A DNA stretch of 64,000 nt from Acidimicrobiales bacterium (GTDB lineage: Bacteria > Actinomycetota > Acidimicrobiia > Acidimicrobiales > Poriferisodalaceae), in assembly GCA_038135065.1 (NCBI GenBank), contig JAYPWI010000013.1:14497-78496 (forward strand), written 5' to 3'. Each line of letters opens with the position of its first letter. Position 1 is the first letter of the stretch. The notes beneath the pieces are model-generated. The model saw only the letters and a list, made by a program, of their open reading frames with translations, did no database searches and was not told the DNA's origin. Positions 26,886-36,380 of the stretch are shown one piece after another. Both the position numbers and the translations under genes were made by a program.

Positions 26886-27770
26886 ATGGCACCTGTGTCG
26901 CCGCAGCATCGTACGCAGGAGGATGCCGACGACCTCGGAGGGCTGGCTGGTTGGTTGGTGGCCATCCTGCTCTTCGTCGGTTTTTCAGCTCTCGGGTTCG
27001 CCCTGATCGGGCCCCATGTCCCCGCTCGGCCCGATGTGCCGCTTCCCGCGACGGCAGCCGTGCCCGGGGCCGTGCCAGCTGATCGGTCAGGTGGCACAGC
27101 GACAGCGGCTCGGCCGGACGACACCCCGCGTGCTGTCGAGCCCGACGCCGTGCCCGTCCTGCAACTGGACATGTCCGACGGGCGCATCACCGTCACGTCA
27201 TCAGCTGCCGTCGCGTCCGTAGGGCAGGAGGTCGGCGATCTGCTGACCATGACAACGGGTCAGCGGGTGGAGCACCTGCGGGCGGCAGGTGGGCCTGCGA
27301 CTGGTCCCATACTGCTGACTGGGTCGTGGCCGCAGGGGTATCGGCGTGGCCTGCAGGCCGCACGGGAGTTGCTCGAGCAACGCACCGCAGGCCCCATCGA
27401 CGACCGGTCCCACAGCATCGGCCCGACACCGTTGGCCCGAGCCCTGCAGGCAGAACTCGATGCGCTGGCTACCGAGATCACGCTCGTGTTCGACCCGGAC
27501 ACCGGGCAGCTCGTGCCCGAGGGAACTCCGGGACTGATCTCCGCCGTAGTGGCCCTTTCCGACGCAACCGACGTGGTGGTGCTCCTGTCGGTGTCGACTG
27601 ATAACGACGAGGGCGATGGTGACGATGACCGGGCGCTCCAGCAGGCCCGCCACGTCGTGGACTATCTCGAGCATCGTGGGGTCCGACAGGGACTCGTGCG
27701 CGCGGTTATCGGTTTCCGGTCCGGCACGGCCGGCTCGCACAGGGCAGACTTCACGGTGGTGAACCAATGA
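26886..27770 (+). CDS. membrane-anchored hypothetical protein with a degenerate OmpA/MotB-like C-terminal domain
   Basis: The N-terminal TM segment is LAGWLVAILLFVGFSALGFALIG. The C-terminal LVFDPDTGQLVPEG...VVLLSVSTDNDEGDGDDDRALQQARHVVDYLEHRGV...AVIGF follows the OmpA-like pattern (by eye). An ATGA overlap joins it to the next gene. Confidence 0.5.
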   Translation: MAPVSPQHRTQEDADDLGGLAGWLVAILLFVGFSALGFALIGPHVPARPDVPLPATAAVPGAVPADRSGGTATAARPDDTPRAVEPDAVPVLQLDMSDGRITVTSSAAVASVGQEVGDLLTMTTGQRVEHLRAAGGPATGPILLTGSWPQGYRRGLQAARELLEQRTAGPIDDRSHSIGPTPLARALQAELDALATEITLVFDPDTGQLVPEGTPGLISAVVALSDATDVVVLLSVSTDNDEGDGDDDRALQQARHVVDYLEHRGVRQGLVRAVIGFRSGTAGSHRADFTVVNQ

Positions 27771-28540
27771 GCTACACAGAAATCGACTACGCAACCGACG
27801 GTGAGGTGGGAGTGATCACCCTCAACCGACCCGAGGCCCACAACGCTCTGACCTGGACGACCTACGGCGAACTGGAGGACGCAGTGCGGTCGACCTCGGC
27901 CCGTTGCCTCGTGATCACAGGGGCGGGCCGGTCGTTCTGCAGCGGTGACGATGTCAAGCAATTGATGTCGACCTTCGCAGATCGCGAACCCGACACCACA
28001 CGGGTGCCCCGCCTGACTCCGGCCGCCGAGGCCCTCCTCTACAGCAATGTGCCCCTCGTCGCGGCAGTCAACGGGGCCGCCGTGGGTTGGGGGATGGAGC
28101 TGGCCCTGATGTGTGACCTCCGGGTGGCATCGACGGCGGCCCGGTTCGGGGAACTCTTCGTGAAACGCGGCCTGGTGACCGACGTGCCGGGAATCGGCCG
28201 CCTCGCTCAACTTGTCGGTCGGGAGAAGGCCGCTGAGTTGGTGTTCACCGGGGAGATCATCGACGCGGCCGAGGCGCAGCGCATCGGCCTGGTCGGCCGG
28301 GTGGTCGAACCGGACGACCTGATGTCGGTGGCCATGGAGCGGGCCCAGACCATTGCGGCCAACCCGCCCCTGGCCATCGCTCGGATGAAGGCGGCAATGC
28401 GTGACACTCTCGACCCTGACTGGACTGCGTTGGGGGAATGGGTGAGCCGGAACCTTGGAGAGCTCTTCCGGACCGAGGATCACAAGGAAGGGGTCGCATC
28501 CTTCCTCGAGAAGCGGCCTCCCCGCTTCGTGGGGCGATGA
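27767..28540 (+). CDS. enoyl-CoA hydratase/isomerase family protein
   Basis: GVITLNRPEAHNAL...ITGAGRSFCSGDD...AAVNGAAVGWGMELALMCD. Confidence 0.9.
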   Translation: MSYTEIDYATDGEVGVITLNRPEAHNALTWTTYGELEDAVRSTSARCLVITGAGRSFCSGDDVKQLMSTFADREPDTTRVPRLTPAAEALLYSNVPLVAAVNGAAVGWGMELALMCDLRVASTAARFGELFVKRGLVTDVPGIGRLAQLVGREKAAELVFTGEIIDAAEAQRIGLVGRVVEPDDLMSVAMERAQTIAANPPLAIARMKAAMRDTLDPDWTALGEWVSRNLGELFRTEDHKEGVASFLEKRPPRFVGR

Positions 28541-28574
28541 GGTGACCGGCGCACCGCAGTGGGCCTGTCACCCC

Positions 28575-29726
28575 ATGGTGGAGGCCGTTCGCAGTCTTGG
28601 ACCGACGATCCTCGCCGCGGCCGACGACATCGAGGCGAACCGGCGCCTGCCTGCTTCCCTGGTGGCCGCCCTCGATGACGCCGGGGCCTATGCAATGTAC
28701 GTGCCGGCGTCAGTCGGGGGAGCCGAGGTCCACCCGCTGACTGCGATGCTGGTCACCGAGGAGCTGGCCCGCCATGATCCGTCGACGGGTTGGTGCGTGC
28801 AGGTGTCGGCTGCGGTGACGTCGTTCCTGGCCTGGATCGACCCGACCGGTCTGGCCCAGCTCGTCGATGCGGTTCCCGCTGTCCGCCTGGCCGGATCGGC
28901 CCGCCCCCTGGGGACTGCGCGTGAAGTGGAGGGGGGTTTCGAAGTCAGCGGTCACTGGAATTACGTGAGCGGGGTACGCGATGCGACGCTCGTGCTGGCG
29001 TCGGCCGTTCTCGAGCCCCGTCAGGGCGACCCTCCGTTGGCTCGATCGATGTTCCTGCCGGTCACCGATGGCACGGTGGTCGCCAACTGGGATGTGATGG
29101 GCATGTGCGGGACGGGGTCGGACGACTTCGTGCTGGACGGGGTGTTCGTGCCCGACGAGCGGGTCGGTTACAAGCGGTGGATCGATCAGCGTGACGAGCC
29201 TCTCTACGACCCACGACTGGCCATGGTCGCGGCCTGGGCACCCACGGTCGGCGTTGCGTGCGGCACGGCCCGAGGGGCCATCGAAGAACTCGTTGCGCTC
29301 GGCGGGAACAGCACCACCATGTCGACCGATGCCCTGCGGGATCGGCCAGCCGTGCAGGACGCAATTGGGGAGGCGCAGGCCCTGGCCGCATCGGCCCGGG
29401 CGTTCGTGGTGGACGCCATCGGCGCAGCGTGGGATGCCCTGGAGCTCGGGGCTGGGGACCTTGGACGGCGCACAGCCGAGGCCCAACTGGCCATCACCCA
29501 TGCGCTTCGCACCGCCGTGACGGTGGCCGATTTGTGCTTCCACGCCGCAGGGACGAGCGCCATCAGCACCGGGTATCGACTGCAGCGCTTCCTGCGGGAC
29601 GCCCATACTGCGGTGCAGCACGCGGCGGGTCACCGGGACCACTTCCGTACGGGTGGGCGGTCCGTGCTGGGCCTCGACGCCGGCGCGATGAACCTCCGGG
29701 TGGGGGATCGTCCGGGTGCGCGCTGA
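28575..29726 (+). CDS. acyl-CoA dehydrogenase-fold protein (possibly a flavin-dependent monooxygenase type)
   Basis: ANRRLPASLVAALDDAGAYAMYVP...GGFEVSGHWNYVSG...RFLRDAHTAVQHA is an ACAD-like three-domain pattern. The start is ATG 28575 or GTG 28542. Confidence 0.75.
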   Translation: MVEAVRSLGPTILAAADDIEANRRLPASLVAALDDAGAYAMYVPASVGGAEVHPLTAMLVTEELARHDPSTGWCVQVSAAVTSFLAWIDPTGLAQLVDAVPAVRLAGSARPLGTAREVEGGFEVSGHWNYVSGVRDATLVLASAVLEPRQGDPPLARSMFLPVTDGTVVANWDVMGMCGTGSDDFVLDGVFVPDERVGYKRWIDQRDEPLYDPRLAMVAAWAPTVGVACGTARGAIEELVALGGNSTTMSTDALRDRPAVQDAIGEAQALAASARAFVVDAIGAAWDALELGAGDLGRRTAEAQLAITHALRTAVTVADLCFHAAGTSAISTGYRLQRFLRDAHTAVQHAAGHRDHFRTGGRSVLGLDAGAMNLRVGDRPGAR

Positions 29727-29738
29727 GTCCATGAGGAC

Positions 29739-30815
29739 TCAGGGGCGGACCTCGTAGTAGAGGTTGGCTGCGTCGTCGAAGTCGTGTTGTTCGAAGCGGC
29801 TGAAGCCGGCGTCAGTCGTCAGCTCCTTGGCTTTCGCCGGGTGCAGACCGAGGGTGCCGAGTCCGAGTCCGCCTGGTTCGCTGACTGCCGACTGCAGGCA
29901 CGAGGTGACGGAGAAGCTGTAGAAGAGGGCGAGCAGGGGGTTGCGGCGGTCCTTGGCGAACTCGCCGGAACTACGAATGTCCTTGATCAACAGGGTGCCG
30001 TCGTCGGCCATGGCCCCCCGGATCGCAGCGAGGGCCAGGTCCGGCCGGGCCATGTCGTGGAGGCAGTCGAAGGTGAGGGCGAGGTCGATGTCGCCGCTCG
30101 GGGGGATATCGGCCGCCCCGGCACAGACGAAGCTCACGTTGGTCAGGCCCTCGGCTGCCGCGTGGTCGACCGCGTTGGCCACCGCGATGGCCGACGGGTC
30201 GTAACCGATGATCGTGCTGGCGGGATAGGCGGCTGCGATCAAGCAGGCAGACACCCCGCTGCCACATCCCACGTCGAGCACTCGCGCACCTGCCTGCAGC
30301 TTGGCATCGACCCCGTCGAGTCCGGGGAGGATGCGCGACGTCAGGGCCTTGCGAGAGAACGGACCCGTCATGCGCGCCAGGCCAGCTGCTGCCTTTGGTC
30401 CCTGCTGTTCGTAGGTGATGCCGATCCCGGTCCGGAACGAGTCGATGACCAGGTCCAGGACGGCTGGTTCGATGCCTCCCCGGAAGGCCCCCAGAGCGAA
30501 TGCCGTCGAATGCTGTTCGTCGGCCAGCACGGCGGCCCCCTCGTCGGAGAGTTCGAAGGCCATCGAATCGTGCACCTCGACAAGGCGGGCCGCCCCCATG
30601 GCCAGGAGCCACTCGTGCAGAAGTCGTTCGTCGAGACCAGTCGTCGCTGCTAGCTCGGCGCTGGTTACCGGGCCTGCGCCTGCCAGCGAGGTGAACAATC
30701 CCAAGCGGTCGCCGATGTGGATGAGGACGGAGATCATCTCGCCCTGCTTGTAGGACCACACAGTGAAGCTGTAGGCGGCCAGGGCGTCGGGATCGAGGGG
30801 TGTCGTGTCGGCCAT
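29739..30815 (-). CDS. class I SAM-dependent methyltransferase with an N-terminal winged-helix-like domain (Rv2258c-like architecture)
   Basis: ARVLDVGCGSGVSA is SAM motif I, and LTFDCLHDMARP follows. It lies 41 nt downstream of the acyltransferase gene on the same strand. Confidence 0.8.
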   Translation of the reverse strand: MADTTPLDPDALAAYSFTVWSYKQGEMISVLIHIGDRLGLFTSLAGAGPVTSAELAATTGLDERLLHEWLLAMGAARLVEVHDSMAFELSDEGAAVLADEQHSTAFALGAFRGGIEPAVLDLVIDSFRTGIGITYEQQGPKAAAGLARMTGPFSRKALTSRILPGLDGVDAKLQAGARVLDVGCGSGVSACLIAAAYPASTIIGYDPSAIAVANAVDHAAAEGLTNVSFVCAGAADIPPSGDIDLALTFDCLHDMARPDLALAAIRGAMADDGTLLIKDIRSSGEFAKDRRNPLLALFYSFSVTSCLQSAVSEPGGLGLGTLGLHPAKAKELTTDAGFSRFEQHDFDDAANLYYEVRP

Positions 30816-30856
30816 GAGCGGACCCTAGTGCCCGCATGAACCCCGCCGGATCGGAA

Positions 30857-31816
30857 TCAGACGTAGGGCCAGCGTCGCTTGGACGTGCCCGAACTCTCCC
30901 TGGGGGCGGTGAGGGCCCAGCGGCGACGCCAGGCCGCGCCGTCCGGTCCGGCGATGCCCGGACTCACCTGGGCATGAGCTCGCTGGCGCGCGGCGAACCA
31001 ATTCCCCGTGGCCGTCTCGTCGGCCAGTGACTCGACGGCCTGCTGCAACCTGCGGGTGAACGTTCGGTTGTTGTCGTCTTCCGTGAAGTGGATGGGGCGG
31101 CCGAAATTGACGACTGACGCAGATCGGGTCGGCCAGTTCCGGCCCTTGCGGAGGATGTTGAACGTGCCCCGGATGTGTACGGGGACCACGGGTACCCCCG
31201 CCTGTTTGGCAAGGAAGGCAGCACCAGGACGGAACTCCTGCCCCCACCCGTCGGGCGAACGGCCACCTTCGGGGTAGATCACCATGCTCCAGCCCCCGCG
31301 CAACAGGTTCACCGCCTTCTCGATGGTGTTGCGGTTGATCGAGGTCCGCTCGATTGGGATAGCGCCGATGAACAGGGCTGACAGGGCAGCCGAGTACTGA
31401 TTGCCGAAGAAGTAGTCGGCAGCCGCTCCGACGACCAGCTTGCTCCGCCAGGGTTCGGGAACCGAGGTGATGATCACCGGTGTGTCGGCGTGGCTCTGGT
31501 GGTTGGCTGCGAAGATCGCCGCCCCCTCGAGGTCGTGGAGACGGTCCAAGCCCCTGATGTCGGGTCGTGCGTAATAGCGCACGATGCCCTTGCCGATGGT
31601 GGCCAGGGCGACCTTGCGGGCCATCCGGGCCGGATAGCGCCTGGCCCAATCGGTGTCGTAATTGGCGCCGACACGACTGGGCAACGGAGACAGCCCCTTG
31701 GGTGTCGGAGCCGCTCGCAGTGGGAACTCGGCCCGCCGGACCACCTTGGTCACCGACGCCTTGGCCCGCTTCGGGCCGAGGTGCCGAATGGCCGGACGAC
31801 GGTTGGGGTCGTTCAC
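30857..31816 (-). CDS. lysophospholipid / 1-acyl-sn-glycerol-3-phosphate acyltransferase (PlsC-like)
   Basis: FAANHQSHADTPV (HX4D motif) and VIYPEGGRSPDG (PEGxR/T motif). The GTG start at 31816 overlaps the upstream stop (GTGA at 31813-31816). Confidence 0.85.
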   Translation of the reverse strand: MNDPNRRPAIRHLGPKRAKASVTKVVRRAEFPLRAAPTPKGLSPLPSRVGANYDTDWARRYPARMARKVALATIGKGIVRYYARPDIRGLDRLHDLEGAAIFAANHQSHADTPVIITSVPEPWRSKLVVGAAADYFFGNQYSAALSALFIGAIPIERTSINRNTIEKAVNLLRGGWSMVIYPEGGRSPDGWGQEFRPGAAFLAKQAGVPVVPVHIRGTFNILRKGRNWPTRSASVVNFGRPIHFTEDDNNRTFTRRLQQAVESLADETATGNWFAARQRAHAQVSPGIAGPDGAAWRRRWALTAPRESSGTSKRRWPYV

Positions 31817-33402
31817 GTGACGTCCGCCATCAGGACCGGCGGGTTGTGGATGTGGGTGATCGTCGGCTGGGTGCCGACAACGTCGACTGCGATTTCCAGG
31901 GCGTCGTTCAGGGTCGATGCGGAGCGGAAGCCGAGGCGCTTCACGGAGCGTGGATCTCCACCCACCACGATCACCTGGCCGAGATGCTCGAGGGCATGGG
32001 CGCACCAGTACCACATGTAGAACGGATGCACGCCGTGGTACGCGTACGACGTGCGATAGAGGTGCCGGTACCACTCGTCTTCGGCGTAGCGGCGCTCATA
32101 GGTCCGTTCGATGACCTCAGGATCGGTGGTATCGGCCAGCACCTCCTCGAAGAAGTCGATGTAGCTGGGGTGATGGACCGGGTGGAACTCCCACGGGGTG
32201 GGGTGGGTCATGATCAACACGCCGCCCTCGCGTACGAGAGGCTTACCGCGGTAGAGGTTGAAGAAGTAGCCCAGGCCGAGGCAGGCCACCAGGATCGGGT
32301 TCATGATCGAGTTGACGTTGTAGGGGCCCAGGTAGGGCAAGCCCATGGTCAGTACGTCGGTCTGTCCCTGGACGGGGACGAGATGCTGGCGGTAGACGTT
32401 CTCGGTGGTGACCTTGTGAACGGCTTCGACCTCGCCTGCCTGGATCGAGGTGAGGCCGTAGGGCGCCCGGATGTTCTGCATCAGGGTGCGTGCCGTGCGG
32501 CGGGGCACGCGATCGAGGAACTTGGTGGTGCCGAGGAGCAACGCCCGGTCGCGGGGCGTCATCTCCCACTCCCGCTTCTGCAGGAAATGCCAGGGTCGGG
32601 GGAAGGTGTCGTTGTTGAGGGTGGTCTCGATCTGGAACACCTTCAGGCCTGCGTCGCGGATCAGCCGACCCTGGCGCCAGTTCTTGGTGTGGAGTTCGCT
32701 CTTCTCCTGGTCCATGAACGAGCGGGAGTGGCGCATCGTGTGCACGTTGTGGTGATGGCGCAGCGCCGTGTAGCCCGACAGGCCGGTGGCCACACTCTTG
32801 TGGCCGCCGTCCATCGACACGAGGTTGATGTTCACGTAGACGACCAAGTCCGACTCCACCGCCCGGGTAGAGATCACCACCTCCTCACCATGATCGGTGG
32901 TGCCCAGATGGGTCAGCCCCTCAGGGTCCTCTGCGTCGAAGTTGTAGAGCTGTCCGTGGGGGGCGAACGCGTCGTACACCCGGTCACCCACCGCATGCCG
33001 GAGCTCGTCTTCGGTCATCCGCCGGTGTAGGGCCAGGGCTGCGATGAGATGGACGTCGTCGACCCCGGCGGCCGCCGCGATGTCGAGGACCTGCTCGATG
33101 ATCCGTCCCCGGATGTCGGGTGCCTGCATCTGCGGAAGGGGCAGAGAGATGTCGTCGAATGCGATGGTGAGCTTCATGCCCGGCTTCATCAGGGCGGGCA
33201 GGGGTTCAGAGTCGCCCAGTGGGTTGTGGAGCGCCTCGTGGATCGCTCGGTCGACGTCGGCGATGGCGTCGAGGGGTTCGTTCGGGTACACGACCCGGCT
33301 TCCCACCGGCAGCTTCTCGAAACGGAAACCCTCCCCGTGGTGGAACAGGATCGGTGGGGTGGAGCGCTCGACGTCGAGGACGAGACCTCTGCGGGTACTC
33401 AT
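31813..33402 (-). CDS. LarA-like (lactate racemase N-terminal / DUF2088) domain protein, ~530 aa
   Basis: MSTRRGLVLDVERS...LTIAFDDISLPLP...VVYVNINLVSMDGGHKSVATGLSGY... GGHKS resembles the LarA SGGxK Lys-tether context (by eye). An ATGA overlap with the upstream gene lies at 33399-33402. Confidence 0.7.
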   Translation of the reverse strand: MSTRRGLVLDVERSTPPILFHHGEGFRFEKLPVGSRVVYPNEPLDAIADVDRAIHEALHNPLGDSEPLPALMKPGMKLTIAFDDISLPLPQMQAPDIRGRIIEQVLDIAAAAGVDDVHLIAALALHRRMTEDELRHAVGDRVYDAFAPHGQLYNFDAEDPEGLTHLGTTDHGEEVVISTRAVESDLVVYVNINLVSMDGGHKSVATGLSGYTALRHHHNVHTMRHSRSFMDQEKSELHTKNWRQGRLIRDAGLKVFQIETTLNNDTFPRPWHFLQKREWEMTPRDRALLLGTTKFLDRVPRRTARTLMQNIRAPYGLTSIQAGEVEAVHKVTTENVYRQHLVPVQGQTDVLTMGLPYLGPYNVNSIMNPILVACLGLGYFFNLYRGKPLVREGGVLIMTHPTPWEFHPVHHPSYIDFFEEVLADTTDPEVIERTYERRYAEDEWYRHLYRTSYAYHGVHPFYMWYWCAHALEHLGQVIVVGGDPRSVKRLGFRSASTLNDALEIAVDVVGTQPTITHIHNPPVLMADVT

Positions 33403-35720
33403 GAATGCATGGCCTTCCGGAGGGGAGGAGCGAGGGGGAGCCGTGGACGTGGCCCGCCGGGCGAGGTGGGCCAGTCTTCTGTGAGCCACCCCCGCTTGTC
33501 GGCGATGGTCACCAGTCTGGTCTCTGGGTTCACGGCGACGGGGTAACCCACGGCCTCGAACATGGGGAGGTCGGAGGCAGAATCGGCGTAGGCCACGCCC
33601 TGGGCTGGGTCGAGCCCGTTGGCGGCTGCCCAGTCGAGCATCAGCTGGGCCCGCACTTCGCCGGTTGGTGGGACGTCGACCATCTCACCGGTCAGTCGCC
33701 CGTTGCGACGGTCGATGCGTGCTGCCACGATGTCGTCGAAGAGGGGACGGAGGGGATGCACGGCGACATCGAGGGCGCCGGTGATCAGCACCGTCTTGTG
33801 ACCTGCGGCCCGGTGGGCACGCACCCGGCGTAGCCCGGCGGGGAACGACTTGGTGAGGATCATATGGCTCAGCATCTCGGCGGCGTCTGCCTCGAGTTGG
33901 TCGATCGGTGCACCCTTATAGCGCTGATAGAAGTAGCGCAGGAAGTCGGTCCTGTCCCGTCGGTCGCGGCGCCACAGTCCGGGGGCTTCGGTCAGGGTTC
34001 GGGCGGCGAAGCGCAGGCGTTGCCCGGTGTCGAGGTGGCGGGTGGCCAGCCAGGCGTAGCTCTCCACGACGTTGGAGGCGATCAGGGTGTTCTCCAGATC
34101 GAAGGCTGCGAAGTGACGCTCGGGATCGAGGACTTGGGCTCGCAGCCGCTCCTGGCGGGTTGGGCCGGTGCGCCGCTCGGGGGTTGTTTTGACTCGGGCC
34201 TGTACGACAACGGTTGGCAGATGGACCTCGGTGATGTAGTGGTGCCAGTCGATCACCCGGGGGTCGAAGCCGAATGCGTCCTGGTCGTCGGCAGGTAGGG
34301 CGTCCCATAGTTCGAGCGTTCGATGTACGCCATAGACGGCCTCGCACTTGCCGTAGGCCCCGTAGATCTGCACATATCCCTGGATCTGTTCGAGGCTGCG
34401 GCGCCGCTCGGCGAGGCGGAGCGTGAAGCTGTTGCGTCCACGGAGGGGAAGCCGATTCACCACCTTGTCGGCCACGTCGAACACCTTGGCGACTCGATCG
34501 AGCTGCTCTTCGAGTCCGACCGAGCCGGCGTACTTCCATTCGGTCGATGCGGTCGGGTGACCGTTGGCGTCGTACACGGGGTGTTCTTCGAACCAGGCCA
34601 TTGCAGTGTCGAGCAGCTGTTTGAACTGCAGGGGGTTCACCGAGCCCGACGCGATCTGGAATACCTCGGGCCGGGGCTGCGGACCTCGAGCCGCGGCCGC
34701 AATGATCGAGGCGGCCACCATGTCCACGGGGATCACATCGATGATGCCCTCGGGGTAGCCGGGGAAGGTGTTGAGCTCCCCTTTCGCAAACGAGACGATC
34801 AGGGGTTCTGCCATGCGGAAGCCCCGGATCCAGCCGGGCGATGGCTCGGCCCAGGCTGACTCGATGATCGAGGGACGAACGACGGTCAGTGGGACGTCAC
34901 CGTGGAGCTCCACGAGGGCGGTTTCGCCGAGGGCCTTGGAGTAGGTGTACACGTCTGGCCAACCCAGCGAACCGGCCCGCGACCGCCCTGCTTCGACCAT
35001 CTGCTGATCGACCCAGGACTGTCGGAGTTGTTCGGTCTTGGCTGCGAGCATGGGGAGGCCGGCAGCACCGAGCTCTTCCCTGGCTCCTTTCCGGAAGACG
35101 TCGAGCTGCTCGGGTGTTCGGCTACGAGCATCGAGATCACCTCGCGTTCGACGAGCCGCCGCCACCTCGGCCCGCCAGTCGACCTGCACTTGGAATGGGG
35201 TACCGGCGAGGAACTCCTCATCGGCCGAGCCGCGTCGGTTTCCGGCCACGTAACAGGTGGATACCGCGACCAGATGGGGGGTGGTGCCCGCCGCATGCAG
35301 TAACTCGAGGATGCGGTTCGGGCCGAGCAGGTTGATTTCGATCGAGGTGTCGAGTGGGCTGTCGAAGCTCACCGTCGCAGCGCTGTGGATGATGGTGTCG
35401 CAGGTAGCGAACGTTGTGGCGTCCTCGGCACTCAGGCCGAGACCATCACGCGACACGTCGCCATCCACGACGGTGATGCGTCGCTCGCAGATCTCGTCGA
35501 ACCGGTCACCCCACTCGGAGCGAAGGCGATCGAAGGCATCGTTGCGCAGGATCTCCCGCTGCACTCTTCGGCGGCCATCGGAACGCCGCCCGGGACGCAC
35601 GAGCAGCACGAGTTCGCAGTCGGGAACAGATCGAAGCAGTCGCTCTACCAGGGCGGTGCCCAGAAAGCCGGTACTGCCGGTGACACCTATGCGGTGCCCG
35701 GCAAGAGCGTCTGCGATCAC
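33399..35720 (-). CDS. fusion protein: fatty acyl-CoA reductase-type SDR (NAD_binding_4-like) plus C-terminal HAD-IB hydrolase domain
   Basis: The N-terminal part has IGVTGSTGFLGTALVERLL (NAD site), YTYSKALGE (YxxxK) and VVRPSII. The C-terminal ~250 aa have AAFDLENTLIASN (a DxDxT variant, D-x-E-x-T), LITGALD and AYADSASDLPMF (HAD motif IV). Confidence 0.8.
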   Translation of the reverse strand: MIADALAGHRIGVTGSTGFLGTALVERLLRSVPDCELVLLVRPGRRSDGRRRVQREILRNDAFDRLRSEWGDRFDEICERRITVVDGDVSRDGLGLSAEDATTFATCDTIIHSAATVSFDSPLDTSIEINLLGPNRILELLHAAGTTPHLVAVSTCYVAGNRRGSADEEFLAGTPFQVQVDWRAEVAAARRTRGDLDARSRTPEQLDVFRKGAREELGAAGLPMLAAKTEQLRQSWVDQQMVEAGRSRAGSLGWPDVYTYSKALGETALVELHGDVPLTVVRPSIIESAWAEPSPGWIRGFRMAEPLIVSFAKGELNTFPGYPEGIIDVIPVDMVAASIIAAAARGPQPRPEVFQIASGSVNPLQFKQLLDTAMAWFEEHPVYDANGHPTASTEWKYAGSVGLEEQLDRVAKVFDVADKVVNRLPLRGRNSFTLRLAERRRSLEQIQGYVQIYGAYGKCEAVYGVHRTLELWDALPADDQDAFGFDPRVIDWHHYITEVHLPTVVVQARVKTTPERRTGPTRQERLRAQVLDPERHFAAFDLENTLIASNVVESYAWLATRHLDTGQRLRFAARTLTEAPGLWRRDRRDRTDFLRYFYQRYKGAPIDQLEADAAEMLSHMILTKSFPAGLRRVRAHRAAGHKTVLITGALDVAVHPLRPLFDDIVAARIDRRNGRLTGEMVDVPPTGEVRAQLMLDWAAANGLDPAQGVAYADSASDLPMFEAVGYPVAVNPETRLVTIADKRGWLTEDWPTSPGGPRPRLPLAPPLRKAMHS

Positions 35721-35743
35721 CTCTTCTGTCTACCACGATCTCC

Positions 35744-35757
35744 TTACCATCTGGTAA
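35744..35757. promoter_or_regulatory. palindromic operator candidate TTACCA-TC-TGGTAA between the reductase operon and the TetR gene
   Basis: A perfect 6+6 inverted repeat in the 69-nt divergent intergenic region (35721-35789). Confidence 0.55.
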
Positions 35758-35789
35758 GTATTCCCGTTGCAGCGAGTACCCTGCGCGTC

Positions 35790-36380
35790 ATGGCCGCTCC
35801 CAAGACCCGAGACCGTGTTGTCGACGCTGCCTTGTGGGCGTTCGGCACCCGGGGGTACGACGGCACCTCTCTCGATGACGTGGCAGGCGAGGTCGGCATC
35901 ACCAAGCAGGCTGTCCTCTACCACTTCCCGACCAAGGAAGAATTGCTGCGCTCGAGCATCGAGGTGGCGGCCGAGGAGGTTGGTGCTGCCCTGGCGCAGG
36001 CACTCCGGTCCGTGCCGCCCGGGTTCGGGCGAGTGGAAGCCATCGTCAAGGCGACCTTCTCCCTCGCTGCCCGGCGCCCAGAGGTGCTCGGTTTGGTGCG
36101 GTCGGTCACCCGCCAGGGCGGGGCGCCCGCTGGTGAGCTGGCGGGCCGGTTGTCGGCCCTGCTCGACGATGCCGTTGCCTTCATGGCGGCAGAGATGGAG
36201 GCTGGTCGCTTCCGGAGTCTGGAACCTCGCATGGTGGTGTTGGCCATCTACTCGTCAGTGATCGGCGTGGCCACCGAGCCCGAGGTCATGAGGGTGCTCG
36301 GCGTCGAACCCGACCTGCGATCCCTGGTCCAGGCCCGGCGCCAGATGATCGAGTTTCTGCGGGCGGCATTGTGTCCGTGA
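35790..36380 (+). CDS. TetR-family transcriptional regulator
   Basis: MAAPKTRDRVVDAALWAFGTRGYDGTSLDDVAGEVGITKQAVLYHFPTKEELL. Confidence 0.9.
   Translation: MAAPKTRDRVVDAALWAFGTRGYDGTSLDDVAGEVGITKQAVLYHFPTKEELLRSSIEVAAEEVGAALAQALRSVPPGFGRVEAIVKATFSLAARRPEVLGLVRSVTRQGGAPAGELAGRLSALLDDAVAFMAAEMEAGRFRSLEPRMVVLAIYSSVIGVATEPEVMRVLGVEPDLRSLVQARRQMIEFLRAALCP

What the first reader, a model, noticed from the sequence alone, without database searches (positions are those of the whole stretch)
29739..36380. Translationally coupled operon of a FAR-HAD fusion, a LarA-like protein and a PlsC-like acyltransferase (plus methyltransferase), with a divergent TetR gene and operator
Three minus-strand genes are fused by 4-nt overlaps (ATGA at 33399-33402, GTGA at 31813-31816).
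- The first is a fatty-acyl-CoA-reductase-type SDR (GSTGFLG, YxxxK) fused to a HAD-IB phosphatase-like domain. Its motif I is FDLENT, so the second Asp is replaced by Glu.
- The second is a ~530-aa LarA/DUF2088-like protein that keeps a GGHKS segment reminiscent of the Lys that tethers the nickel-pincer cofactor in lactate racemase.
- The third is an HX4D / PEGxR acyltransferase.

A SAM methyltransferase follows after 41 nt. A TetR gene diverges across a 69-nt region holding the perfect palindrome TTACCA-TC-TGGTAA.

The combination is reductase, phosphatase-like domain, 2-hydroxy-acid racemase/epimerase homologue and glycerolipid acyltransferase. That suggests synthesis of an unusual lipid (fatty alcohol, ether or hydroxy-acyl-derived glycerolipid), not any textbook pathway. 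No larB/larC/larE cofactor-synthesis genes are in the window.
Basis: partly seen in the sequence, partly recalled or inferred. Interest (0 to 1): 0.6.

Follow-up and report, generated by a model that had tools for sequence, protein, structure and literature searches.

The report
Rearranged elb-type ether-lipid operon
This repressor-controlled operon of an uncultured Acidimicrobiales bacterium matches the myxobacterial "elb" ether-lipid genes part by part. Its lactate-racemase-like nickel-cofactor protein is the counterpart of ElbC, the elb gene with no assigned function, so it is a testable candidate for an unsolved step of bacterial ether-lipid synthesis.

Summary

**What the operon is**
- The middle gene belongs to a curated LarA family: NCBIfam NF052592, LarAH14/15/16, 884 bits against a cut-off of 740.
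- It lacks the second catalytic His and the carboxylate-binding Arg, so it is probably not a 2-hydroxyacid racemase.
- It is the only LarA-family gene in the genome. larC and larE are present elsewhere, and the 3' end of larB lies at a contig edge.
- The order FAR-HAD → LarAH → acyltransferase is kept in 20 of 20 relatives fetched.
- The TetR operator co-varies symmetrically across relatives.

**Link to the elb genes**
- M. xanthus ElbC (MXAN_1529) is a LarAH group-15 protein.
- In 80 metagenome loci of that type, the window's domains find ElbB-like HAD, ElbC-like LarAH (42-52% identical) and ElbD-like FAR…AT.
- The window therefore holds an elbB/C/D set without the acyl-CoA synthetase (ACS) and acyl-carrier (ACP) domains.

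**Limits**
- An ether-lipid product is inferred, not shown. No lipid chemistry exists for these bacteria.
- Five close relatives keep the operon but have no larBCE.

**Prior knowledge:** the gene association is already tabulated in Desguin 2020, Table S1. This scan reached the same elb reading before in at least eight other genomes.

The parts
35790..36380 (+). TetR-family regulator (196 aa), divergent from the operon; presumed repressor
   Evidence: PF00440 matches with E 6.9e-13. A divergent orthologue (43-74% identical) is present in 15 of 20 relatives.
35743..35758 (.). Operator palindrome CTTACC-ATCT-GGTAAG. It lies 22 nt upstream of the FAR-HAD start codon and 31 nt upstream of the tetR start codon.
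   Evidence: Read directly from the sequence. It is conserved in 15 of 16 relatives' intergenic regions with symmetric arm changes: TCTACCA..TGGTAGA and TGACCGATCGGTCA.
35728..35735 (.). Extra half-site GTCTACCA between the operator and the FAR-HAD start codon
   Evidence: Conserved as TCTACCA or TCTAGCA in relatives. Two loci (L028, L038) carry two full palindromes instead. Its function is inferred.
33399..35720 (-). FAR-HAD fusion (773 aa): a fatty acyl-CoA/ACP reductase (residues ~1-520, NAD_binding_4 + Sterile) joined to a HAD-IB phosphatase-like domain (~535-750, motif I FDLENT)
   Evidence: Pfam and NCBIfam assignments. The best PDB sequence match is 7eoz, a fatty acyl-CoA reductase, E 1.3e-61. 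FAR is 27-42% identical to ElbD-type FAR and HAD 27-39% identical over near-full domains to ElbB-type HAD (short fragments up to 59%). FDLENT is invariant in 21 of 21 Acidimicrobiales.
31813..33402 (-). LarA homologue of the LarAH14 type (529 aa), the ElbC counterpart and presumed nickel-pincer-nucleotide enzyme. Asp84, His126, Lys202 and His217/218 are kept. The Arg75 equivalent is Leu87 and the His174 loop is deleted.
   Evidence: NF052592 scores 883.7 bits against a cut-off of 740. The AlphaFold model has pLDDT 94.9 and its best fold match is 9q3k, E 6e-35, TM 0.79/0.86. The residues are invariant in 100 of 100 homologues. It is the only PF09861 gene in the genome.
30857..31816 (-). PlsC/AGPAT-type acyltransferase (319 aa; HX4D as NHQSHAD, plus PEGGRS), the counterpart of the C-terminal acyltransferase domain of ElbD
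   Evidence: PF01553 matches with E 1.4e-19. The PDB sequence match is 5kym, T. maritima PlsC, E 3e-13. It is 28-40% identical to ElbD-type acyltransferase domains.
29739..30815 (-). Rv2258c-like winged-helix + SAM methyltransferase (358 aa); variable last gene of the operon, role unknown
   Evidence: PF21320 plus Methyltransf_31/25. It lies downstream of the acyltransferase in only 6 of 20 relatives. A convergent acyl-CoA dehydrogenase gene (28455-29726, + strand) ends the unit.

Best explanation
The four minus-strand genes form one TetR-repressed operon. It is a rearranged version of the myxobacterial elbB-elbC-elbD ether-lipid genes that lacks the acyl-CoA synthetase (ACS) and acyl-carrier (ACP) domains.

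**Proposed steps (all inferred)**
1. The FAR domain reduces an acyl-CoA or acyl-ACP to a fatty aldehyde or alcohol.
2. The LarA homologue, loaded with the nickel-pincer nucleotide made by larB, larC and larE elsewhere in the genome, performs a hydride-transfer step that is not a racemisation. It acts on the glycerol-phosphate or dihydroxyacetone-phosphate (DHAP) backbone. This step is either ether-bond formation or a C2 redox step.
3. An unlinked Zn-dependent dehydrogenase supplies a further reduction.
4. The PlsC-type enzyme acylates the lyso-intermediate.
5. The HAD domain removes a phosphate.
6. The product would be a 1-O-alkyl(acyl)glycerol-type lipid.
7. The TetR protein binds the palindrome CTTACC-N4-GGTAAG, which lies between the two start codons, and is presumably released by a lipid or acyl-CoA ligand.

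**Shown here:** gene structure, homologies, residue conservation, synteny, operator conservation, and the presence of cofactor genes.

**Inferred:** every chemical step and the product.
For: **The LarA homologue**
- It is a member of a curated family.
- It has the LarA fold.
- Asp, His, Lys and His-His are invariant in 100 of 100 homologues.
- It is the only LarA-family gene in the genome, yet larC and larE are present and the 3' end of larB is at a contig edge.
- In the part of the phylum sample that belongs to the window's class, LarAH and LarC co-occur without exception: 19 genomes have both and 14 have neither.

**The link to elb**
- ElbC is MXAN_1529. elbA-E run from MXAN_1531 to MXAN_1527 (PMC13012113), and MXAN_1529 is listed in LarAH group 15 (supplement of PMC7583248).
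- A Myxococcales-type query found 80 metagenome loci with the order HAD → LarAH → FAR…AT. The window's HAD, LarAH, FAR and acyltransferase all find their counterparts there by tblastn. HAD is adjacent in 52 of 61 loci, and an ElbD-like FAR…AT in 25 of 38 loci with enough flank.
- One such gene is a 1471-aa protein with NAD_binding_4/Sterile, AMP-binding, PP-binding and Acyltransferase domains.
- elbD is genetically required for alkyl ether lipids in M. xanthus (PMC9131029).

**Operon structure and conservation**
- Two 4-nt overlaps join the first three genes.
- Synteny holds in 20 of 20 relatives.
- The operator arms co-vary.
- The Zn-ADH follows the operon's presence and absence across genomes, in the operon or unlinked.
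Against: - No ether lipid has been reported from Acidimicrobiia in the library searched.
- ElbC itself was never tested genetically. Some elb-like clusters in sponge symbionts carry only elbD and elbB (preprint 10.64898/2026.06.23.733905).
- Pontiella has elbD homologues but no detected ether lipids (PMC11868695).
- Five relatives of the same family, 93-98% complete, keep the operon and the cofactor-binding residues but have no LarB, LarC or LarE above cut-off. About 13 of roughly 100 LarAH14-type genomes in the phylum sample lack LarC.
- The HAD motif I reads D-x-E instead of D-x-D.
- The operon has no ACS or ACP and no ElbE-type short-chain dehydrogenase (SDR).
Confidence: 0.5

Rival explanations
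1. The operon makes some other reductase-derived lipid, such as a fatty-alcohol, wax-type or hydroxyacyl glycerolipid. The LarA homologue would be a true 2-hydroxyacid racemase or epimerase acting on a hydroxy acid or hydroxyacyl head or tail, as the first reader also suggested.
For: - The NCBIfam name is 'NPN-dependent hydroxyacid isomerase'.
- All characterised LarA enzymes act on 2-hydroxyacids (PMC7583248).
Against: - The His174 loop is deleted and the Arg75 equivalent is Leu87. The Lys298 equivalent is Asn according to Table S3 of PMC7583248.
- Frankia LarAH14 showed no activity on seven hydroxyacids.
- The authors themselves doubt that these groups can invert a stereocentre.
Confidence: 0.12
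2. The pathway is elb-like, but the LarA homologue does not form the ether bond. It would be a one-way C2 epimerase or redox isomerase of the glycerol backbone, for example interconverting 1-alkyl/acyl-glycerol-3-phosphate and its DHAP form or its enantiomer. Ether formation would be done by other enzymes.
For: - LarA chemistry is transient oxidation of a C2 hydroxyl.
- A single catalytic His suggests one-directional chemistry (bioRxiv 10.1101/2025.08.19.671153).
- A separate NAD(P) dehydrogenase accompanies the cluster in both lineages: a Zn-ADH here, and the SDR proteins ElbA and ElbE in M. xanthus.
Against: No enzyme in the operon other than the LarA homologue is an obvious ether-forming candidate. 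There is no direct evidence either way.
Confidence: 0.18
3. In this clade the LarA homologue does not depend on the nickel-pincer cofactor. It would use another ligand or act as a non-redox or scaffolding subunit of the lipid enzymes.
For: - Five same-family genomes, and about 13% of carriers in the phylum sample, lack LarC or the whole LarBCE set while keeping the operon.
- Many more distant paralogues have lost the His, Lys and His residues altogether.
Against: - In the window's genome larC and larE (with a larB 3' end at a contig edge) have no other LarA-family client.
- The Lys tether and the Ni-binding His are invariant even in the larBCE-less genomes.
- LarAH and LarC co-occur perfectly in the class-level sample.
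- G027 lacks LarAH and carries only fragmented LarC copies.
Confidence: 0.15

Closest known systems
Myxococcus xanthus elbA-E ether-lipid operon (MXAN_1531-1527; Lorenzen et al. 2014, as reviewed in PMC9131029 and PMC13012113)
   Same: - The same four catalytic modules lie in one operon: HAD (ElbB), LarA homologue (ElbC), and the FAR and AGPAT-type acyltransferase domains of ElbD.
- The window's LarAH is 42-52% identical to the LarAH of ElbD-containing loci. FAR, HAD and the acyltransferase are about 27-42% identical.
- A TetR gene is also linked in at least one elb-type locus.
   Different: - There are no acyl-CoA synthetase or carrier-protein domains.
- FAR is fused to HAD instead of to ACS-ACP-AT, and the acyltransferase is a separate protein.
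- There are no ElbA or ElbE SDR genes. A Zn-dependent medium-chain (MDR) dehydrogenase takes that place. It is unlinked in this family and sits inside the operon in sister families.
- The host is an actinobacterium with no known ether lipids.
LarAH group 14 gene context (Desguin et al. 2020, Sci Rep, PMC7583248, Tables S1 and S3; NCBIfam NF052592)
   Same: - The window's protein is a member, at 884 bits.
- It has the same residue signature (D, L/I, H, gap, K, H).
- It has the same neighbours: COG0204, COG0560, COG3320 and COG1063.
   Different: - That work lists the association only in a supplementary table and calls the function unknown.
- It does not connect groups 14 and 15 with the elb genes.
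- In this window the COG1063 gene is unlinked and a methyltransferase is appended.
Single-histidine LarA homologues LarA_Sp and LarA_Bw (PDB 9q2u/9q3k, 9q3j; bioRxiv 10.1101/2025.08.19.671153)
   Same: - They are the best sequence and fold matches among solved structures.
- They are about 500 aa long, have one catalytic His, and keep the Lys tether and the Ni-binding His.
   Different: - They carry Asn in place of His174, whereas here the loop is deleted.
- They carry Lys in place of Arg75, whereas here it is Leu.
- Their gene context points to carbohydrate metabolism, not lipid.
- Identity is only about 20-23%.
Eukaryotic/myxobacterial AGPS route (GNPAT, AGPS, FAR1, alkyl-DHAP reductase, AGPAT)
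   Same: It has the same logic of parts: fatty acyl reductase, acyltransferase, a C2 ketone/alcohol redox step and a phosphatase.
   Different: The operon has no AGPS flavoenzyme. The ether-forming catalyst is unknown, and the LarA homologue is the candidate.

Membership tests
LarA superfamily, LarAH14/15/16 family (NF052592) | Profile score above the curated cut-off over the full length | tested here: met
   883.7 bits against 740, covering residues 8-528 of 529
LarA superfamily, LarAH14/15/16 family (NF052592) | Two-domain LarA fold | tested here: met
   The model has pLDDT 94.9. Foldseek matches 9q3k with E 6e-35 and TM 0.79/0.86, followed by 9eia and 5huq.
LarA superfamily, LarAH14/15/16 family (NF052592) | NPN-binding residues: the Asp72, Lys184 (tether) and His200 (Ni ligand) equivalents | tested here: met
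   Asp84, Lys202 and His218 align with them. They are invariant in 100 of 100 homologues.
LarA superfamily, LarAH14/15/16 family (NF052592) | NPN biosynthesis genes larB, larC and larE in the same genome | tested here: met
   larC is at C62:152-1266, in two frames. larE is at C10:24085-24849 and scores 289 bits against a cut-off of 150. Only the 3' end of larB is seen, at the contig edge C62:3-110. These genes are not found in five same-family relatives.
LarA superfamily, LarAH14/15/16 family (NF052592) | Protein actually carries Ni-NPN | not testable with these tools
   Needs purified protein
2-hydroxyacid racemase/epimerase (canonical LarA mechanism) | Two catalytic histidines (His108 and His174) and carboxylate-binding Arg75/Lys298 | tested here: not met
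   The His108 equivalent is present (His126). The His174 loop is absent, and the Arg75 equivalent is Leu87. The Lys298 equivalent is Asn according to the table in PMC7583248; I did not align that position here.
elb ether-lipid gene cluster | ElbC-type LarA homologue next to an ElbB-type HAD | tested here: met
   MXAN_1529 is in LarAH group 15. The window's LarAH is 42-52% identical and its HAD 27-39% identical over near-full domains (short fragments up to 59%) to proteins in loci that carry an ElbD-type gene.
elb ether-lipid gene cluster | ElbD multidomain protein FAR-ACS-ACP-AGPAT | tested here: not met
   FAR and the acyltransferase are present but on separate proteins. There is no AMP-binding or PP-binding domain in the operon. 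Compare L213:11565-15980.
elb ether-lipid gene cluster | ElbE/ElbA NAD-dependent epimerase/dehydratase genes | tested here: not met
   None is in the operon. A Zn-ADH is the accompanying oxidoreductase instead.
elb ether-lipid gene cluster | Alkyl ether lipid product | not testable with these tools
   No lipid data exist for this uncultured organism. No report for Acidimicrobiia was found in the library.
Fatty acyl-CoA reductase (PF07993 + PF03015) | Rossmann TGxxGxxG motif, YxxxK motif and a C-terminal Sterile domain | tested here: met
   GSTGFLG at residue 15 and YTYSK at 258. PF07993 E 3.6e-59; PF03015 E 5e-06, which is 27 bits and below its 35.4-bit cut-off. 7eoz matches with E 1.3e-61.
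HAD-IB phosphatase | Motif I DxDx(T/V), with the Asp+2 as general acid/base | tested here: inconclusive
   Motif I is FDLENT, so Asp+2 is Glu. This is invariant in 21 of 21 Acidimicrobiales. ElbB-type HADs mostly read YD[VLF]DGT, and 3 of 57 read YDLEGT. TIGR01490 scores 91 bits, below its 98-bit cut-off; TIGR01488 scores 49.7 bits, above its 45-bit cut-off.
PlsC/AGPAT acyltransferase (PF01553) | HX4D and (P)EGxR motifs | tested here: met
   NHQSHAD at residue 105 and PEGGRS at 182. PF01553 scores 70.6 bits. 5kym matches with E 3e-13.
TetR repressor with palindromic operator | N-terminal HTH and a conserved inverted repeat in the divergent promoter region | tested here: met
   PF00440 is present. 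The palindrome is conserved with co-varying arms in 15 of 16 relatives. Binding itself was not tested.

The most novel reading that the evidence does not exclude
The nickel-pincer LarA homologue (LarAH14 here, ElbC in myxobacteria) is the missing ether-bond-forming enzyme of the aerobic bacterial pathway that does not use the flavoenzyme AGPS. It would borrow a hydride from C2 of the glycerol-phosphate backbone and return it after a fatty aldehyde or alcohol has been coupled at C1. That would be a redox-neutral reaction of a kind not known for this cofactor or for lipid biosynthesis.
Probability: 0.2. Interest if true: 0.85.

Novelty: new variant of a known kind. Interest (0 to 1): 0.6.

Why it matters
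**Two open questions that this operon joins**
1. How do aerobic bacteria make alkyl ether lipids through the Elb route? elbD was shown to be needed in 2014, but the chemistry and the role of elbC remain unknown.
2. What do LarA homologues that cannot racemise do with the nickel-pincer cofactor?

**Why this operon helps**
- It is a minimal, ACS/ACP-free form of the module. That makes it a convenient object for reconstitution.
- The module is widespread. It scored above the family cut-off in 98 of 401 sampled genomes of the phylum, and in most families of this order.

**If the ether reading is right**
- A large group of marine and soil Actinomycetota would be unrecognised sources of non-isoprenoid alkylglycerol biomarkers.
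- Nickel would become a requirement for membrane-lipid synthesis in these bacteria.

Tried and rejected
- **Locus search with broad alignments.** The search for related loci with alignments A1 and A2 failed because they had no sufficiently conserved stretch.
- **Wrong clade for the genome-contig scan.** I spent the single scan on a GGWK-motif clade that I had taken for group 15. Its 80 loci (Desulfobacterales, Poribacteria, Asgard archaea) have no FAR, HAD or acyltransferase neighbours. That clade is a separate, more distant branch and says nothing about elb.
- **Reaching M. xanthus.** A route through a 'Myxococcales' MAG handle (G031 and its phylum) gave no family member above cut-off. No direct alignment with the M. 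xanthus proteins was therefore made. The ElbC identity rests on locus tags in two papers plus Myxococcales-type metagenome loci.
- **Signal scan.** The promoter and terminator scan gave nothing above the shuffled expectation.
- **Literature.** Searches found no paper that joins 'nickel-pincer' or 'lactate racemase' with 'ether lipid' or 'elbD', and none on ether lipids in Acidimicrobiia. This covers the held library only.
- **Readings rejected.** A true lactate or hydroxyacid racemase is rejected because catalytic residues are missing. The methyltransferase as a core part is rejected because it is present in only 6 of 20 relatives.


Full report
**1. Observation**

- The minus strand carries ORFs at 33399-35720, 31813-33402, 30857-31816 and 29739-30815.
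- The first three are joined by 4-nt overlaps. ATGA lies at 33402-33399 and GTGA at 31816-31813.
- The fourth gene follows after 41 nt.
- A TetR gene starts at 35790, across a 69-nt gap that holds TTACCA-TC-TGGTAA at 35744-35757.
- Pfam and NCBIfam give these assignments:
  - NAD_binding_4 + Sterile + HAD (HAD-IB) for the first gene.
  - Lar_N for the second gene.
  - PlsC-type Acyltransferase for the third gene.
  - An Rv2258c-like winged helix plus a SAM methyltransferase for the fourth gene.
  - TetR_N for the regulator.
- The quoted motifs are at residues 15 (GSTGFLG), 258 (YTYSK) and 540 (FDLENT) of the first protein, 199-203 (GGHKS) of the second, and 105 (NHQSHAD) and 182 (PEGGRS) of the third.
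- A convergent acyl-CoA dehydrogenase gene at 28455-29726 closes the unit.
- Names on near-identical proteins place the organism in the Acidimicrobiales. Earlier notes on this window agree.

**2. The LarA homologue**

- It scores 883.7 bits on NCBIfam NF052592, 'NPN-dependent hydroxyacid isomerase, LarAH14/15/16 family', whose cut-off is 740.
- Alignments with solved LarA proteins give these equivalences:

| L. plantarum LarA residue | Role | Residue in this protein |
|---|---|---|
| Asp72 | contacts the cofactor ribose | Asp84 |
| His108 | catalytic | His126 |
| Lys184 | tethers the cofactor | Lys202 |
| His200 | nickel ligand | His218 |
| Arg75 | binds carboxylate and phosphate | Leu87 |
| His174 | second catalytic His | absent; its loop is deleted |

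- This is the signature listed for group 14 in Desguin et al. 2020.
- That paper also reports that a Frankia group-14 enzyme was inactive on seven hydroxyacids. [quoted passage not shown]
- An AlphaFold model (pLDDT 94.9) matches the single-histidine LarA homologues 9q3k and 9q3j best (E 6e-35, TM 0.79/0.86), then classical LarA structures.
- Across 20 Acidimicrobiales orthologues and 80 elb-type homologues, Asp84, His126, Lys202, His217 and His218 are invariant.
- More distant paralogues have lost these residues.

**3. Cofactor genes**

- The window's genome (3.6 Mb, 85 contigs) has these lar genes:
  - larC, matched in two reading frames.
  - The 3' end of larB, at the edge of the same contig.
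  - A full larE on another contig.
- The window's gene is the only PF09861 gene in the genome. The cofactor pathway therefore has no other LarA-family client.
- In the phylum-level sample, the genomes of the window's class show perfect co-occurrence of LarAH and LarC: 19 have both and 14 have neither. This is read from the genus tallies.
- Five genomes of the window's own family (G005, G010, G012, G013, G014; 93-98% complete) contradict a strict dependence. They keep the operon and the residues but have no LarB, LarC or LarE above cut-off.
- About 13 of roughly 100 carriers in the phylum sample lack LarC. This remains unexplained.
- The phylum tallies include genomes flagged as unpublished: G394, G413, G466, G531 and G696, and also G331, G347, G375, G442, G541, G671 and G690. 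Only these tallies rest on them, and leaving them out does not change the picture.

**4. Conservation**

- The family is found in 26 of 31 relatives.
- It is found in 46 of 201 high-quality genomes of the class. Nearly all of these belong to the window's order.
- It scores above the cut-off in 98 of 401 genomes of the phylum sample.
- In 20 fetched loci the order FAR-HAD → LarAH → acyltransferase is kept in all. In one of them (G021) the genes appear broken.
- The divergent TetR is present in 15 of 20 loci and the methyltransferase in 6 of 20.
- Five loci from other families carry a Zn-dependent dehydrogenase (COG1063 type) between the HAD and LarAH genes.
- In the window's family its 50-56% identical orthologue is unlinked. 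In this genome it lies at C45:15926-17095, next to an M23 peptidase gene.
- That dehydrogenase was not found in the LarAH-less genomes G024, G026 and G027.
- The operator CTTACC-N4-GGTAAG is at the same position in 15 of 16 intergenic regions. Both arms change together (TCTACCA…TGGTAGA, TGACCGATCGGTCA). An extra half-site, or a second full palindrome, lies nearer the FAR start.

**5. The link to the elb genes**

- Table S1 of Desguin et al. gives the gene context of each group:
  - Group 14: COG0204, COG0560, COG1063 and COG3320.
  - Group 15: COG0451 (twice), COG0560 and COG1022.
- Their sequence table lists MXAN_1529 in group 15.
- The M. xanthus elbABCDE operon runs from MXAN_1531 to MXAN_1527, and elbD is MXAN_1528. 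MXAN_1529 is therefore elbC.
- Reviews call ElbC a protein of unknown function. It sits beside ElbB (HAD) and ElbD (FAR-ACS-ACP-AGPAT).
- I tested the link with sequences. A Myxococcales-type homologue (P0130) found 80 metagenome loci.
- In those loci the window's domains detect, by tblastn, the following:
  - A HAD gene directly upstream of LarAH in 52 of 61 loci with enough flank.
  - A FAR directly downstream in 36 of 58 loci.
  - An acyltransferase domain 3-4.5 kb further on the same strand in 25 of 38 loci.
- Median identities to the window's domains are 48% for LarAH, 33% for HAD, 30% for FAR and 34% for the acyltransferase.
- One such gene, L213:11565-15980, encodes 1471 aa with NAD_binding_4/Sterile, AMP-binding, PP-binding and Acyltransferase domains. 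It is preceded by LarAH, HAD and a TetR gene.
- The window thus holds the ElbB, ElbC and ElbD catalytic modules in a different arrangement, without the activating ACS-ACP pair.
- The HAD motif I is D-x-E in all 21 Acidimicrobiales. It is mostly D-x-D in ElbB-type proteins.

**6. Mechanism**

Everything beyond homology is inference.
- elbD is needed for alkyl ether lipids in M. xanthus, and an aldehyde was seen only in strains carrying elbD.
- The most economical reading has five steps:
  1. FAR reduces an acyl thioester.
  2. The NPN enzyme performs a hidden-redox step on a glycerol-phosphate or DHAP derivative.
  3. A dehydrogenase adds a reduction.
  4. The PlsC-type enzyme acylates.
  5. 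The HAD domain dephosphorylates.
- Loss of the carboxylate-binding residues and of one His fits a substrate that is not a hydroxyacid and a reaction that is not a racemisation.
- Whether the LarA homologue forms the ether bond (about 20%), only shuttles the C2 redox state, or works without NPN in some lineages cannot be decided here.

**7. What is known already**

- The family and its neighbours are catalogued (PMC7583248; NCBIfam).
- The elb cluster is known.
- ElbD homologues have been noted in Actinobacteriota MAGs.
- In the held library no paper joins the nickel-pincer or LarA field with ether lipids or elb. No paper reports ether lipids from Acidimicrobiia.
- This scan reached the same reading before in at least eight other genomes. 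I arrived at it independently, before that look-up.

**8. Verdict**

- The operon is a new architectural variant of a known but mechanistically unsolved system.
- Interest is moderate to high because it gives a concrete, testable candidate for an open biochemical step.

Noticed in passing
G000:C62:152-1266 (locus L002:152-1266), outside the window: The genome's larC matches its Pfam model in two reading frames that switch near L002:757-763. The same split is seen in relatives G007 and G027. It could be a programmed frameshift, a broken gene or an assembly error.
   Followed up: partly
Relatives G005, G010, G012, G013, G014 (loci L039, L027, L037, L033): These genomes keep an intact operon and unchanged cofactor-binding residues, but they have no LarB, LarC or LarE above cut-off. 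This is unexplained.
   Followed up: partly
G000:C45:15926-17095 (locus L214:1501-2670): The Zn-dependent dehydrogenase lies inside the operon in sister families. In this family it is unlinked and sits next to an M23 peptidase gene. It is not found in the genomes that lack the LarA homologue.
   Followed up: partly
Loci L040-L119 (genome-contig scan): A sister clade of LarA homologues has GGWK instead of GGHK. It occurs in Desulfobacterales, Poribacteria, Spirochaetota and many Asgard archaea (Loki-, Heimdall-, Jord-, Frey- and Baldrarchaeia). It keeps Asp/His/Lys/His but has unrelated neighbours.
   Followed up: partly
Protein P0178 and its cluster (947 aa): A LarA homologue is fused to a chlorophyll a/b-binding domain (PF00504). 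It is presumably from a eukaryotic alga.
   Followed up: no
L102:6128-8941: A contig labelled Methanosarcinales (38% GC) carries a LarA homologue 47% identical to the window's. It is followed directly by a GPAT-type acyltransferase (PF01553 + PF19277).
   Followed up: no
L038 (G021:C13:601500-612416): In this relative the FAR, HAD, LarAH and acyltransferase matches are all broken into several frames. This is either a decaying operon or an error-rich assembly.
   Followed up: no
window 27767-29726: An enoyl-CoA hydratase gene (27767-28540) and an acyl-CoA dehydrogenase gene (28455-29726) lie on the + strand and converge on the operon's end. A functional link to the operon was not examined.
   Followed up: no
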